NCBI GenBank assembly: GCA_964252035.1
Contig: OZ176205.1
Reading direction: 5' to 3' (one strand)
DNA length: 64,000 nt
DNA from: Podarcis erhardii
Lineage: Eukaryota
Shown here: piece by piece, positions 1-3,000 of the stretch
Numbering within the stretch: position 1 is the first letter of the stretch
How the letters are laid out: each line of letters starts with the position of its first letter
Program-made: the position numbers

Positions 1-3000
1 TTATTGGTTTTTTTAAAATGTTCAGAGAACCCAAGATAGGAGCAGAGGGACAGTGGAGCACATCCCACCACCCCACTGAGAAGGCATAGCGGTCAACTTA
101 TCCCTTTTCTTGCGAGGAGTCCTATTCGGAATAAAGGAATTTCCCTTAAAAAAAGGGAAACGTTGACAGCTATGCTGGGAAGGGGAATCGACACATTTCA
201 ACAGAGATTCAGGAACCCTCTTAAAAGATTGCACACAAGGGAGGGCAGTGGGAATGAGCACACTCACTCTGCCCCCTGGCCGCCATTGGATGGCAAACAT
301 CTGAAGCAGGGGGATTCCTGTACTTGCGGCAGTTCCCCAACCATTTTAGAAGCCTGATATTCTGGGGTTGGAAAACACGCAGGAGAGTCTACCAGCACAC
401 ACAGGTCCCGCTAACTGAACGCTTAGTTGTGCCCAAACTTTGCTATACAAACGACTGATTCAGATATCTGAACAGCTGGACTTGTGAGAATGGTGTTGCT
501 TAATCGTGAGCTTTATTTTCAATAGTGAGCCTGACATTTTCCTACTGTGTATCCAAGCCCACAAGCAAAGCCTCTTCCTCAGTCGTTGAAATGGGGGCAA
601 AGTCGCTGTACCTGAGCGGCAAAGAACATGTCAGAGCCAAGCCCACAGACTGCCAGCCAGGTTGGCGGCTGGGACAATGAGGGAGACACCAAGGATGAAG
701 AAAAAGAGGAGGACCTTGGCTTCCTCCAGGCTGAATTTTGTCACTGCAGTAGCTGGTGGAGGAAGAAGAGGAGTTGGTGCTGATGCCGGCTTCAGCCTCA
801 TCATAGGCTTCACTCTTTGCCTAGGCCTCAGTGCCAGAGGAGGGCGAAAAAAGGAGGAGAAAGAGGTGGCGGCTGCACCAGTGGAGGAAGCTCCTCAGCT
901 CAGCCCCACAGGCTTTCCCTTGGCTGTCCTCACGGGCTCATGCAGTGAGATTGTTGACCAACTAACTCACTGGTTAGATTCAGACAAGTGGAGTGGAACT
1001 GGTTCAAAAATGGGCAGAAAAGGGGCAGGCCGGTAGCACTTATCAGAGATGGAGGAAGAACTGGGGGAGGGTGATGGGGTGGAGAGACCATGCCGGTGTA
1101 GATATACAGTAGGAAAATGTGGTGTTTCTGTCGCCTTGTTTTATTAGGGAATGCAGTGGGATTTCCCAATACAAAAAAAAAAAGGAAATGATTGGCTCGT
1201 TATGCGAATGCTCGCCTAACAAGCTATTTCTCAGCAACACATTATGGTTGGAAAGCGGGACCCATGTGTACAGGAGACTCCCTCCAACTCATGAAAGGAG
1301 ACTGGAATGGTGGCTGCAGTGTGGGCCTAGTTAGTTTGGTTGTCCCATCTCACCCCTACAGTAGAATGCCAGAAGACGGCAAATGAGAGGAATTCAAGTA
1401 CTACAGGAAAACTAAATTATGAGGGCCAAGTTTACAAGAACAAAGGCATTCTAATAAATGGACACTTACTGAATTAGCGCTGTTGGGATTGGGCCATGGT
1501 CTACCAGCTCCTGGACCCCTGGAGTTTGAGAGAAAACAAGCCTTCAGCATGTACAGAGTGACAATGTGAAACCAAAAATGATTTCCACATCTAGAATTGT
1601 AAGAACGTCAACGGAAAGCCAGCAGCATGGCAGGTGCCTTACATGTTAATCCCAGGCATGCCAGGCCCTAGAGAGTTGGGTGGAGGTCTCATTCCGCCGC
1701 CATAGTTCTGCAATGATAACCAAGGATCAGTCTACCATAACGAGAAGGGAAACCGGAGAAGAAAAGAGAAAGGAAAAAAACAAACAAAAACGAGAGGGTT
1801 AGTCTGTGAAAATGAACTTTAATTAAAAAAAAAAGATGATGATAATGAACATATAGGCAAAATTAGCTACTTTGAAAAAGTAAAACTGGACGGCGGCATC
1901 TCTCAATTTTTTTAAAAGGGGGAGTGGGGAAGAAAATCTTAGAAGCCACTCGAATTCCCATCTCATGGTAGGAGTGTACCAGGAATGCCCAGTGGGCTAA
2001 GGCTTCTAGCACTGGCCAATGCAGGTCATCAAGGAAGCCGTAGCTGCACCTAAAGGGTATGTAAGATGGTTATCTTGAAAGGTAATAAACACAAACAAAC
2101 AAAACCAAAAAAGAGAGGCTTGTCACAGGAAGCCAAACGGGGGAGGTAGACATGAAAGAATTAAGATTCCTTGCTTAGTGTTGTGGTAGGAGAATTGCAT
2201 GGAAAGAAGCAGGAGAAAATGTGGGGTGGGGTGGGCAGAAGAGAGAAAGATTCTGCTTTAAGGAAGACAAGGCAATGAGCACGTGATGGGGTGTTCAGAA
2301 AGGGGAATAGTGACAGCACAAAGGTTTGCAACAGTTTCTAAGTAAAGAGCATTCGGTTACAAAACAGCAAAGCTGGCCAGTCACAAAACTGCGCAAATCT
2401 TTACTGGTGTTCATGCACAAGAAAGAGAAGACAATTCTTAGGCTAGAAAATGTCATTTCTCTCCCATTAAACACGGCTGGCAAACACTTTCGGTTCCCCC
2501 AACACAGACCAAAGTTAGAGCACAAATTCACTTCTGTGCACCAGAGAGATACTACAGAACTGTACTAGGTCCCACTTGTTTCGCAAAGGAGATCTAAAAG
2601 ATGAAATCTGACAGAAAGGGCGCCAATCTGTCACAGCTGCGAAGCCCACGGAAAGCTAACGATTAAGGGCTGGGGATGAAAAGGCAGCTTATTGTGGAAG
2701 TCTACATGTGAGCACTTGCTGAAACACCTGAAGAAGCCGCTTCCTCCCCACCTCTCTGAAGTCATAAATCTAGATCTAAAGTCGGCGGCTATGGATTCCG
2801 ATTTTCTTGGTTCCTGAAAGACAGCTGACACTTGGCTGGCTGATTGGCTCCCCTCCAAACATGGCTGCCCTGCAGGGCCTGATGTAGACTGCACAAAGCA
2901 AAGAGGTGGTTCAAAGCGGGTTCCTCTTTGAAAAGAGTTTAAAGCAAAATTGCAACTGGCTTACATACTGTTTATAAGCGACGCTTTTACCCTCTCGGAA

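What the first reader, a model, noticed from the sequence alone, without database searches (positions are those of the whole stretch)
1708..1803. Dual branch point / dual acceptor switch inserting TDPWLSLQ into SSBP3
Seen: a consensus ACTAAC branch point (1803-1798) and a long AG-free U/C tract lead first to TAG at 1733-1732, whose use adds exactly 24 nt (TDPWLSLQ) before NYGGG. The canonical CAG at 1709-1708 has its own proximal branch-like CTGAT inside those 24 nt. Recalled knowledge, to be verified: SSBP2 isoforms carry SDPWLSLQ at the homologous GPQ/NYG junction. Inference: an ancient paralog-shared alternative 3' splice site placing a W/L hydrophobic motif in a G/P/M low-complexity region, possibly a binding or condensate switch, controlled by branch-point choice (ACUAAC is also an SF1/QKI motif).
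Basis: partly seen in the sequence, partly recalled or inferred. Interest (0 to 1): 0.68.

Follow-up and report, generated by a model that had tools for sequence, protein, structure and literature searches.

The report
Conserved alternative acceptor in reptile SSBP3
Two splice acceptors 24 bases apart in the SSBP3 gene of a lizard or snake add or omit the eight residues TDPWLSLQ; the same choice is already annotated in SSBP3 and SSBP2 from sharks to mammals, so it is real and ancient but not new.

Summary
These are ACTAAC at 1803-1798, a 70-nt AG-free pyrimidine tract, TAG at 1734-1732, and 24 in-frame bases (1731-1708) encoding TDPWLSLQ. CAG follows at 1710-1708, and CTGAT lies 19 nt before it.

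The window is SSBP3 of a squamate reptile, not human. All 8 exon peptides occur exactly in a gecko RefSeq isoform.

Among 180 named database records, 98 carry [TSNA][DE][PAH]W[LF]SLQ at this junction. Of these, 69 are SSBP3-like and 28 SSBP2-like, spanning sharks, ray-finned fishes, lungfish, amphibians, reptiles, birds and mammals. None of 50 SSBP4-type records has it.

The dual branch-point idea fits published scanning rules. The tract before TAG holds a single A, too close to serve that acceptor, so TAG needs a branch point at least 67 nt away. CAG needs a proximal one. This stays inference: no junction reads, lariat data or vertebrate DNA were available. QKI control and a binding or condensate role are untested. 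No paper discussing the event was found.

The parts
6810..6886 (-). It encodes (G)HPNMGGPMQRMNPPRGMGPMGPGPQ and ends in CAG in phase 0. The donor GT follows at 6809-6808.
   Evidence: tblastn of named SSBP3 proteins. Boundaries read. Pfam SSDP profile positions 122-146, E 5.4e-5, below the curated cut-off.
1798..1803 (-). ACTAAC, the candidate distal branch site (branch A at 1799). It lies 67 nt from the G of TAG and 91 nt from the G of CAG, and an AG (1805-1804) directly precedes it.
   Evidence: Its use as a branch point is inferred, not shown.
1735..1797 (-). Pyrimidine tract of 63 nt (T37 C17 G8 A1). The single A is at 1738, 6 nt from the G of TAG and 30 nt from the G of CAG.
1732..1734 (-). 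Upstream acceptor TAG. Its use gives the long form.
   Evidence: The equivalent junction is annotated in 98 of 180 named records from other species.
1708..1731 (-). 24-nt alternative segment. [quoted passage not shown]
   Evidence: Exact match to squamate SSBP3 isoforms.
1726..1730 (-). CTGAT, the candidate proximal branch site (A1727, 19 nt from the G of CAG). The context AGACTGATCC matches AGACTAACCC at the distal site in 8 of 10 positions.
   Evidence: Its use is inferred.
1708..1710 (-). Downstream acceptor CAG. Its use gives the short form.
   Evidence: A direct GPGPQ|NYG junction is seen in 67 of 168 anchored named records.
1643..1707 (-). Common part of the exon, encoding NYGGGMRPPPNSLGPGMPGIN(M). 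The donor GTAAGG starts at 1642.
1469..1518 (-). Next SSBP3 exon, encoding (M)GPGAGRPWPNPNSANS. It follows a 124-nt intron.

Best explanation
Shown:
- The region is the 3' end of an intron of SSBP3 in a squamate reptile, with two in-frame acceptors 24 nt apart.
- The upstream TAG yields a protein with TDPWLSLQ inserted between ...GPGPQ and NYGGG... in the Gly/Pro/Met-rich central region. The downstream CAG yields the form without it.
- Both forms are annotated for SSBP3 and for SSBP2 across jawed vertebrates. The choice therefore predates the split of these two paralogs.

Inferred mechanism:
- Each acceptor is served by its own branch point.
- The 63 nt before TAG contain one adenosine, only 6 nt from the AG. 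TAG can therefore only be reached from a branch point 67 nt or more upstream. The nearest and best candidate is ACUAAC at the 5' edge of the AG-free zone.
- After branching there, a linear search meets TAG first, giving the long form.
- CAG can only win if branching occurs at a proximal site. One candidate is ACUGAU inside the 24 nt (19 nt from CAG). The other is the A at 1738, which is so close to TAG that TAG would be bypassed.
- Anything that weakens the distal site or tract (for example a protein binding ACUAAC or the pyrimidine tract) would shift output to the short form.

Inferred consequence:
- The 24 nt are read twice, as splice signals for the short form and as a peptide for the long form.
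- The unchanged D, W and L residues point to selection on the peptide, probably a short binding motif in a disordered activation region.
For: - Sequence anatomy.
- Longest AG-free zone of the 8 acceptors in the window. The only yTnAy matches upstream of TAG lie 67 and 75 nt from its AG, and CTGAT lies 19 nt from CAG.
- Published rules, read in PMC1431707 sections 4 and 6. [quoted passage not shown] AGs within about 12-15 nt of the branch site are bypassed. Only AGs closer than about 12 nt to each other compete. An exon with an AG at -12 to -25 is not expected to use a distant branch point.
- ACUGAC serves as a working branch site that QKI does not bind, and ACUAAC as an SF1/QKI competition site (PMC13004596 passages).
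- Conservation: 40 of 103 named SSBP3 records hold the insert, and 98 of 180 named records overall, 28 of them SSBP2-like.
- In a count anchored only on the downstream exon, 97 of 168 records have the 8-mer, 67 join directly and 4 are odd models.
- W (TGG only) and D (GAY) are purine-rich codons inside what is the pyrimidine tract of the short form, yet W is present in 98 of 98 and D in 96 of 98. W, S and Q were required by that regex. The anchor-only count found no variant lacking them among SSBP3 and tetrapod SSBP2 records.
- Identity of the gene: 8 of 8 exon peptides are exact in Paroedura picta isoform X9.
Against: - No RNA evidence from this species. Use of either acceptor here is inferred from gene models of other species, some of which may be homology-propagated.
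- No branch point was mapped.
- No vertebrate genomic DNA could be searched. Conservation of ACTAAC, of CTGAT and of synonymous sites is therefore unknown.
- Position 1 varies only among T, S and A (codons of the type xCN) in 97 of 98 records. This fits either a preserved CUGAY branch motif or a small-residue preference, so peptide and splice-signal constraints are not separated.
- Teleost ssbp2a shows diverged or shorter inserts (VWNQ, DIWYTCLQ), and none of 50 SSBP4-type records has the insert. The peptide is therefore dispensable in some paralogs.
- RNA folding shows no structure above shuffles (z 0.29).
- The AlphaFold2 model gives no local order at the insert, though the model is poor throughout.
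Confidence: 0.55

Rival explanations
1. One distal branch point serves both acceptors. The choice between TAG and CAG is made at the second catalytic step, by AG competition or by bypass of TAG, not by branch-point choice.
For: CAG is generally a stronger acceptor triplet than TAG (recalled). The pyrimidine tract is long enough for AG-independent first-step chemistry (principle in PMC1431707 section 4). No branch point has been mapped here.
Against: In the same source, competition is described only for AGs closer than about 12 nt, and here they are 24 nt apart. An AG at -12 to -25 is expected to be taken if the branch point is distant. A full yUnAy match sits 19 nt from CAG.
Confidence: 0.2
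2. The switch is set by proteins on the 63-nt pyrimidine tract (PTBP1/2, hnRNP C, U2AF2, PUF60 and the like) rather than by competition at ACUAAC. QKI plays no part.
For: The tract holds UCUU twice, CUCU twice and UUCU four times. Regulatory elements were found between distant branch points and their exons in all cases studied (PMC1431707 section 4). No paper links QKI to SSBP3 or SSBP2 splicing. Only one full ACUAAC is present, whereas strong QKI repression of RAI14 needed two elements, or one plus a half-site.
Against: Nothing here tests binding. A UAAU half-site lies 18 nt upstream of ACUAAC (1825-1822), so a bipartite QKI site is not excluded, though such a half-site is common by chance in this AT-rich stretch.
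Confidence: 0.3
3. The peptide has no function of its own. The 24 nt are conserved only as branch site, pyrimidine tract and acceptor of the short form, and the long form is tolerated by-product splicing.
For: LSLQ (TTA TCA TTG CAG) is what a pyrimidine tract plus CAG reads as in this frame. Fish models that read through into this intron end give FLSVQ, ALSVFQ and VSMQ. Position 1 varies in a way that keeps CU before GAY. SSBP4 lacks the insert.
Against: Length is fixed at 8 residues in 97 of 98 records, and W, L and D are near-invariant over two paralogs since before the shark-bony fish split. TGG and GAY are purine-rich and weaken a pyrimidine tract. Large annotated clusters carry the insert, for example 651 and 625 member sequences.
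Confidence: 0.2
4. The upstream acceptor is an annotation artefact or noise and is not used in vivo.
For: Many records are automatic predictions. No reads were seen here.
Against: The same in-frame 8-mer is modelled independently by RefSeq, Ensembl/UniProt and other pipelines, in two paralogs and in dozens of species.
Confidence: 0.03

Closest known systems
Annotated SSBP3 long isoforms (e.g. RefSeq 'isoform X9' of Paroedura picta, P0015; Athene noctua X3, P0020)
   Same: Identical exon with TDPWLSLQ between GPGPQ and NYG. All 8 window exon peptides are exact in P0015.
   Different: Nothing at the protein level. The window adds the intron sequence, which the protein records do not show.
SSBP2 isoforms with SDPWLSLQ
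   Same: Same 8-residue insert at the homologous GPQ|NYGG junction, in 28 named SSBP2-like records from sharks to mammals.
   Different: This is a paralogous gene. The first residue is S rather than T, and the flanks differ (MVPLGPQ ... NYGGAMRPPLNALGG).
Distant-branch-point exons defined by AG exclusion zones (Gooding et al. 2006, PMC1431707)
   Same: An extended AG-free zone with a consensus branch sequence and pyrimidine tract at its 5' end, associated with alternative splicing.
   Different: The zone here is 70 nt, below the 100-nt threshold of that class. Here it serves one of two tandem acceptors rather than a whole cassette exon.
RAI14 exon 11: SF1/QKI competition at ACUAAC branch sites (PMC13004596)
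   Same: ACUAAC as a branch site that QKI could occupy. ACUGAC-type sequences act as branch sites that escape QKI.
   Different: RAI14 has two ACUAAC elements 34 and 43 nt from one acceptor and the outcome is exon skipping. Here there is one ACUAAC 67 nt from an acceptor, and the outcome would be a shift to a second acceptor. No binding data exist for SSBP3.
Cryptic upstream acceptors used in SF3B1-mutant cells, and NAGNAG tandem acceptors (both recalled, not checked in a paper here)
   Same: An AG a few to a few tens of nt upstream of the usual AG, reached from a different upstream branch point (the SF3B1 case). In-frame tandem acceptors giving small peptide differences (the NAGNAG case).
   Different: This event is physiological and conserved, not mutation-induced. 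The 24-nt spacing is far beyond NAGNAG, where one branch point serves both AGs.

Membership tests
SSBP3 gene (SSDP family, Pfam PF04503) | Exon peptides match named SSBP3 proteins collinearly | tested here: met
   tblastn maps seven exons in order on the minus strand. 8 of 8 exon peptides are exact substrings of Paroedura picta SSBP3 X9.
SSBP3 gene (SSDP family, Pfam PF04503) | Match to the Pfam SSDP profile | tested here: inconclusive
   Five of six single exons hit PF04503 in profile order (17-45, 47-75, 76-95, 103-120, 122-146). Only one exceeds the curated cut-off (40.8 against 27 bits), and the 30-aa long-form exon gave no hit. Exons were scanned singly, so low scores are expected.
SSBP3 rather than SSBP2 or SSBP4 | Paralog-specific flanks (MGPMGPGPQ ... 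MRPPPNSLGPGMPGINM) | tested here: met
   The window has the SSBP3-type flanks. SSBP2-like records read MVPLGPQ ... MRPPLNALGG, and SSBP4-type records read GMGGMGPQ.
In-frame alternative 3' splice site pair | Two AG acceptors a multiple of 3 nt apart, with no stop between them | tested here: met
   TAG at 1734-1732 and CAG at 1710-1708, 24 nt apart, frame open.
In-frame alternative 3' splice site pair | Both junctions used in transcripts | not testable with these tools
   No RNA data for this animal. Both junctions are annotated in other species (97 with the insert and 67 direct, of 168).
Distant-branch-point exon class (Gooding et al. 2006) | AG exclusion zone of 100 nt or more | tested here: not met
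   The AG-free zone is 70 nt before TAG and 22 nt before CAG. Threshold read in PMC1431707 section 6.
Distant-branch-point exon class (Gooding et al. 2006) | Consensus branch sequence plus pyrimidine tract at the 5' end of the zone, with no good candidate near the acceptor | tested here: met
   ACTAAC is the first 6 nt of the zone, followed by 63 nt with a single A. There is no yTnAy within 66 nt of TAG.
Distant-branch-point exon class (Gooding et al. 2006) | Mapped branch point | not testable with these tools
   Needs lariat sequencing or primer extension.
Quaking response element (ACUAAY plus UAAY half-site within about 20 nt; definition as quoted in PMC13004596) | Core ACUAAY | tested here: met
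   ACTAAC at 1803-1798.
Quaking response element | Half-site UAAY within 1-20 nt | tested here: inconclusive
   UAAU at 1825-1822, 18 nt upstream. There is none downstream in the tract. Such a 4-mer is expected often by chance in this AT-rich stretch, and the upstream orientation was not checked against the original definition.
Quaking response element | QKI binding and QKI-dependent splicing | not testable with these tools
   No CLIP or knock-down data could be consulted. Main-text searches found no link, and supplementary tables are closed.

The most novel reading that the evidence does not exclude
The 24 nt form a doubly coded switch kept for more than 400 million years in two paralogs.
- As RNA, the segment carries the QKI-insensitive proximal branch site (ACUGAU) and the weak tract of the short form. 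An SF1/QKI-contested ACUAAC 67 nt upstream drives the long form. Cell types with high QKI, or with other tract and branch-site binders, would therefore switch SSBP2/3 isoforms.
- As protein, DPWLSLQ would be a short linear motif, an aromatic and leucine 'sticker' or partner-docking site in the disordered activation region. It would change what the LDB1-SSBP complex recruits.
Probability: 0.1. Interest if true: 0.6.

Novelty: already known. Interest (0 to 1): 0.27.

Why it matters
SSBP2 and SSBP3 are cofactors of LDB1 complexes in development and blood formation (context recalled; LDB1-Ssbp3 co-occurrence was seen only in the search listing). Published work on SSBP3 splicing that I could read concerns skipping of exon 6, not this acceptor pair.

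An eight-residue insert that is nearly invariant from sharks to mammals in two paralogs is a good candidate for a functional short motif. The intron offers a clean natural test of how branch-point position dictates acceptor choice. Both questions are cheap to test. As a genome-scan finding, though, it re-derives an isoform already present in public gene models.

Tried and rejected
- **Direct search with the long-form exon.** The peptide was too short for the search for homologous proteins (30 aa, minimum 40). Extending the reference into the intron was rejected for a stop codon. I did not change the genetic code or otherwise force it. I used instead the stop-free frame holding the upstream exon and regions of named database proteins.
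- **Rfam and ARAGORN** on the whole window found nothing, so no SINE-based clue to the taxon.
- **RNA folding** of 1830-1690 gave -19.3 kcal/mol against a shuffle mean of -20.2, z 0.29. There is no sign of a structural switch.
- **AlphaFold2** on the long isoform of Athene noctua, with an alignment of 89 named insert-bearing records. Mean pLDDT was 40.9, and the blocks covering the insert scored 46 and 42, like their neighbours. No helix appeared. Even the N-terminal domain reached only 50-65, so this says little.
- **Literature.** The peptide word gave 0 papers. SSBP3 or SSBP2 with splicing terms, with QKI, and with LDB1 plus 'disordered' gave nothing on this acceptor pair. The passages read concern exon 6 skipping, an unannotated Ssbp2 exon, a listing of Ssbp3 as a potential Mbnl target, and a GWAS locus.
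- **Human origin considered and rejected.** Primate records match at most 5 of 8 exon peptides, whereas squamates match 6-8.
- **Not used.** Complex prediction, the search of protein representatives, the protein-atlas search and fold search. There was no defined partner, and their hits are unnamed.
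Full report
**Observation**

On the minus strand the sequence reads ...CACAG ACTAAC CCTCTCG(T/C-rich)...CGTTATGG TAG ACTGATCCTTGGTTATCATTG CAG AACTATGGCGGCGGA....
- ACTAAC is at 1803-1798.
- Between 1900 and 1700 the only AGs start at 1887, 1871, 1868, 1818, 1805, 1733 and 1709. So 1803-1734 is a 70-nt AG-free stretch, 83% pyrimidine.
- The 63 nt between ACTAAC and TAG are T37 C17 G8 A1.
- TAG is at 1734-1732 and CAG at 1710-1708.
- The 24 nt between them translate as TDPWLSLQ, in frame with NYGGGMRPPPNSLGPGMPGIN.
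- The stop-to-stop frame is exactly 1731-1642.

**Is it more than chance?**
- ACTAAC occurs 16 times on the two strands of the window, fewer than composition predicts. This is the only one followed by 60 nt or more without AG.
- Only 48 of 4163 AG-to-AG gaps on this strand reach 69 nt.
- Among the eight SSBP3 acceptors I located in the window, the AG-free lengths are 47, 59, 35, 36, 29, 70 (TAG), 22 (CAG) and 21 nt.
- The open in-frame 24 nt would not be remarkable alone.

**What gene and what animal**

Everything was done exon by exon.
- The stop-free frame 6914-6696, which holds the upstream exon, was searched against the protein collection. It returned 127 hits at E <= 0.001 among 338 candidates, of which 120 were listed.
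The remaining 103 are named mostly SSBP3; some carry only generic or other names.
- tblastn of these against the window maps exons, with the boundaries as refined, at 38525-38436, 12199-12119, 11232-11173, 7067-7001, 6886-6810, 1731 or 1707-1643, and 1518-1469.
- Single exons hit Pfam SSDP in profile order, one of them above the cut-off.
- All 8 exon peptides are exact substrings of SSBP3 isoform X9 of the gecko Paroedura picta. The next best records are other squamates (Varanus, Pituophis, Laticauda, Phrynosoma, Naja). Primates match at most 5 of 8.

I therefore take the window for a squamate reptile, not human. No contig was taken for human, and none was fetched. The N run at 13717-13912 was left alone.

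**Is the insert real elsewhere?**

SSBP3:
- 40 of the 103 named records carry [TSN]D[PA]W[LF]SLQ between GPGPQ and NYG.
- They include Old World monkeys, carnivores, rodents, bats, cetaceans (TDAWLSLQ), birds, squamates, turtles, frogs, a newt, a teleost and a paddlefish.

SSBP2 and deeper SSBP3 lineages:
- A second search used residues 215-256 of a named frog SSBP3. It gave 143 hits at E <= 0.01 among 197 candidates, of which 120 were listed and one unnamed record was dropped.
- This added SSBP2 records with SDPWLSLQ at the homologous GPQ|NYGG junction. They come from goat, baboon, gundi, muntjac, many birds, geckos and cordylids, salamander and frogs, lungfish, sturgeon, gar and two sharks.
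- It also added SSBP3 records from a sawfish, a catshark, a bichir and many teleost ssbp3a genes.

Totals:
- Over both searches, 98 of 180 named records carry the insert: 69 SSBP3-like, 28 SSBP2-like and 1 unclassed.
- The second search was aimed at the insert, so this ratio is not a frequency.
- A count anchored only on the start of the downstream exon gave, of 168 records, 97 with the 8-mer, 67 with a direct junction and 4 odd models.
- Residue use: position 1 is T36, S60, A1, N1. D is in 96 of 98, P in 88 of 98 (A in 8 cetaceans, H in 2 herrings), W in 98 of 98, L in 97 of 98, and S, L and Q in 98 of 98. The regex required W, S and Q. One search shows that no other variant exists among these records.

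SSBP4 and teleost ssbp2a:
- A third search used a medaka SSBP4 region. It gave 224 hits among 273 candidates, of which 120 were listed and 94 were new. None of the 94 has the insert.
- The 50 records with SSBP4-type junctions all join directly.
- Teleost ssbp2a shows VWNQ or DIWYTCLQ in single models.

The event predates the divergence of cartilaginous and bony fishes and the SSBP2/SSBP3 split. The statement 'paralog-shared' does not extend to SSBP4 in the records seen.

**How it probably works**

The rules I rely on were read in Gooding et al. 2006 (PMC1431707, sections 4 and 6):
- AGs within about 12-15 nt of the branch site are bypassed.
- Only AGs closer than about 12 nt to each other compete.
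- An exon with an AG at -12 to -25 is not expected to use a distant branch point, because that AG would be taken.

Applied here:
- TAG has no adenosine within 66 nt except A1738, which is 6 nt away. It must therefore be served from 67 nt or more upstream.
- There ACUAAC sits at the very start of the AG-free zone. The only other yTnAy is TTCAC at 75 nt.
- From that branch point TAG is the first AG, which gives the long form.
- CAG lies 24 nt further on, too far to compete by those rules. It needs a branch point downstream of TAG or very close to it.
- One candidate is ACUGAU (A1727, 19 nt from CAG), a full yUnAy match. The other is A1738 (30 nt from CAG), with U at -2.
- The two candidate sites have alike contexts, AGACTAACCC and AGACTGATCC, identical in 8 of 10 positions. 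Each is directly preceded by an AG that scanning from that site would never meet.

This is inference from sequence plus rules, and nothing here maps a branch point. RNA folding gives no support for a structural switch (z 0.29).

**Regulators**
- ACUAAC is the optimal SF1 site. A recent paper shows direct SF1/QKI competition at ACUAAC branch sites of RAI14 exon 11, with ACUGAC acting as a branch site that escapes QKI (PMC13004596, passages only).
- However, that paper does not mention SSBP. Strong repression there needed two elements. Here there is one, plus a possible UAAU half-site 18 nt upstream, which is weak evidence.
- Main-text searches link neither SSBP3 nor SSBP2 to QKI splicing. Supplementary tables that might list the event are closed.
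- The tract is equally rich in UCUU, CUCU and UUCU words. Tract-binding repressors are at least as likely as QKI.

**Peptide or splice signal?**
- LSLQ is what a pyrimidine tract plus CAG reads as in this frame.
- Position 1 varies almost only among xCN codons, which would keep CU before GAY, a yUnAy motif.
- So part of the conservation may be splice-signal constraint.
- Against a purely RNA-level explanation stand three points. The length is fixed. W (TGG) and D (GAY) are invariant or nearly so, although these purines weaken the tract. And the insert-bearing clusters are large (651 and 625 member sequences).
- An AlphaFold2 model of a long isoform is disordered there, with no confidence bump. 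The model is poor overall.
- DPW and W-x-x-L resemble known short motif classes (recalled, not tested). No claim is made from this.

**Known or new?**

The isoform is in RefSeq, Ensembl and UniProt models of many species, including an exact match in a gecko, so the event is already known as annotation.

I found no paper on it:
- The peptide word gave 0 papers.
- SSBP3 or SSBP2 with splicing terms gave only work on SSBP3 exon 6 skipping (passages of PMC12946277 and PMC8980049), a listing of Ssbp3 as a potential Mbnl target (PMC7498679 passage), an unannotated Ssbp2 exon (PMC11802453 passages), and a GWAS mention (PMC11941302).

The mechanism is of a known kind: alternative 3' sites governed by branch-point position.

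**What stayed unchecked**
- Junction usage in any tissue.
- Branch points.
- DNA-level conservation of ACTAAC, of CTGAT and of synonymous sites. No vertebrate genome collection was on hand.
- Cyclostome and invertebrate orthologs. None appeared among word-sharing candidates, which is weak evidence of absence.
- The long-form exon itself was never accepted as a query in the large protein search.

Noticed in passing
window 38436-38525, 12119-12199, 11173-11232, 6810-6886, 1708-1731 (minus strand): Four exons of the Gly/Pro/Met-rich region and the 24-nt insert all end in CAG (Gln) in phase 0 (TTTCAG, AGTCAG, AATCAG, CCACAG, TTGCAG). Their lengths, or their paired lengths, are multiples of 3. They can therefore be combined freely as modules.
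   Followed up: partly
database records P0121, P0123, P0124, P0126, P0134, P0135, P0143, P0144, P0155, P0161: Some annotated isoforms join the long acceptor directly to earlier exons (RMGNQ|TDPWLSLQ, PGFFQ|TDPWLSLQ, and in SSBP2 LRIPNQ|SDPWLSLQ). The upstream acceptor is therefore modelled together with skipping of the intervening exons. Whether the two choices are coupled was not tested.
   Followed up: no
database records P0257, P0267, P0278: Teleost ssbp2a models show other inserts at the same junction: VWNQ (a cluster of 356 members), DIWYTCLQ and a longer read-through. This suggests divergence or decay of the motif in that lineage. Salmonid ssbp2a records join directly.
   Followed up: partly
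database records P0044, P0047, P0048, P0050, P0052, P0054, P0132, P0143; P0172, P0173; P0055: Lineage-specific variants of the insert: TDAWLSLQ in 8 cetacean records, SEHWLSLQ in 2 herring-family records, and HTDPWFSLQ (9 residues) in the honeyguide Indicator indicator.
   Followed up: partly
window 12119-12199 (minus strand): An 81-nt, 27-residue exon (GPPGSQPSPHAQPPPHNPNSMMGPHSQ) is missing from several annotated isoforms. It is probably the cassette called SSBP3 exon 6 in papers on myeloid differentiation and DAP3/SFPQ/NONO. The identity is inferred, because those passages give no sequence.
   Followed up: partly
window 1796-1805 and 1724-1733 (minus strand): The two candidate branch sites sit in alike 10-mers, AGACTAACCC and AGACTGATCC (8 of 10 identical). 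Each follows an AG. This could be chance or an old local duplication.
   Followed up: no
window 1519-1642 (minus strand): The intron after the alternative exon is only 124 nt, whereas the one before it is about 5.1 kb (6809-1732 or 6809-1708).
   Followed up: no
window 13717-13912: A run of 196 N lies inside the intron between the exons at 38436 and 12199.
   Followed up: no
database record P0008 (Panthera leo isoform X6): A model with a different, much longer extension before NYG (...SAPSLWRL|NYGSG). This is an intron-derived reading or a further upstream acceptor in a cat.
   Followed up: no
window 7949-8011, 10171-10228, 25140-25185, 32904-32951, 51831-51878, 60355-60398: Only short tandem repeats and microsatellites were found. 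There were no Rfam families at gathering score and no tRNA-like genes in 64 kb.
   Followed up: no
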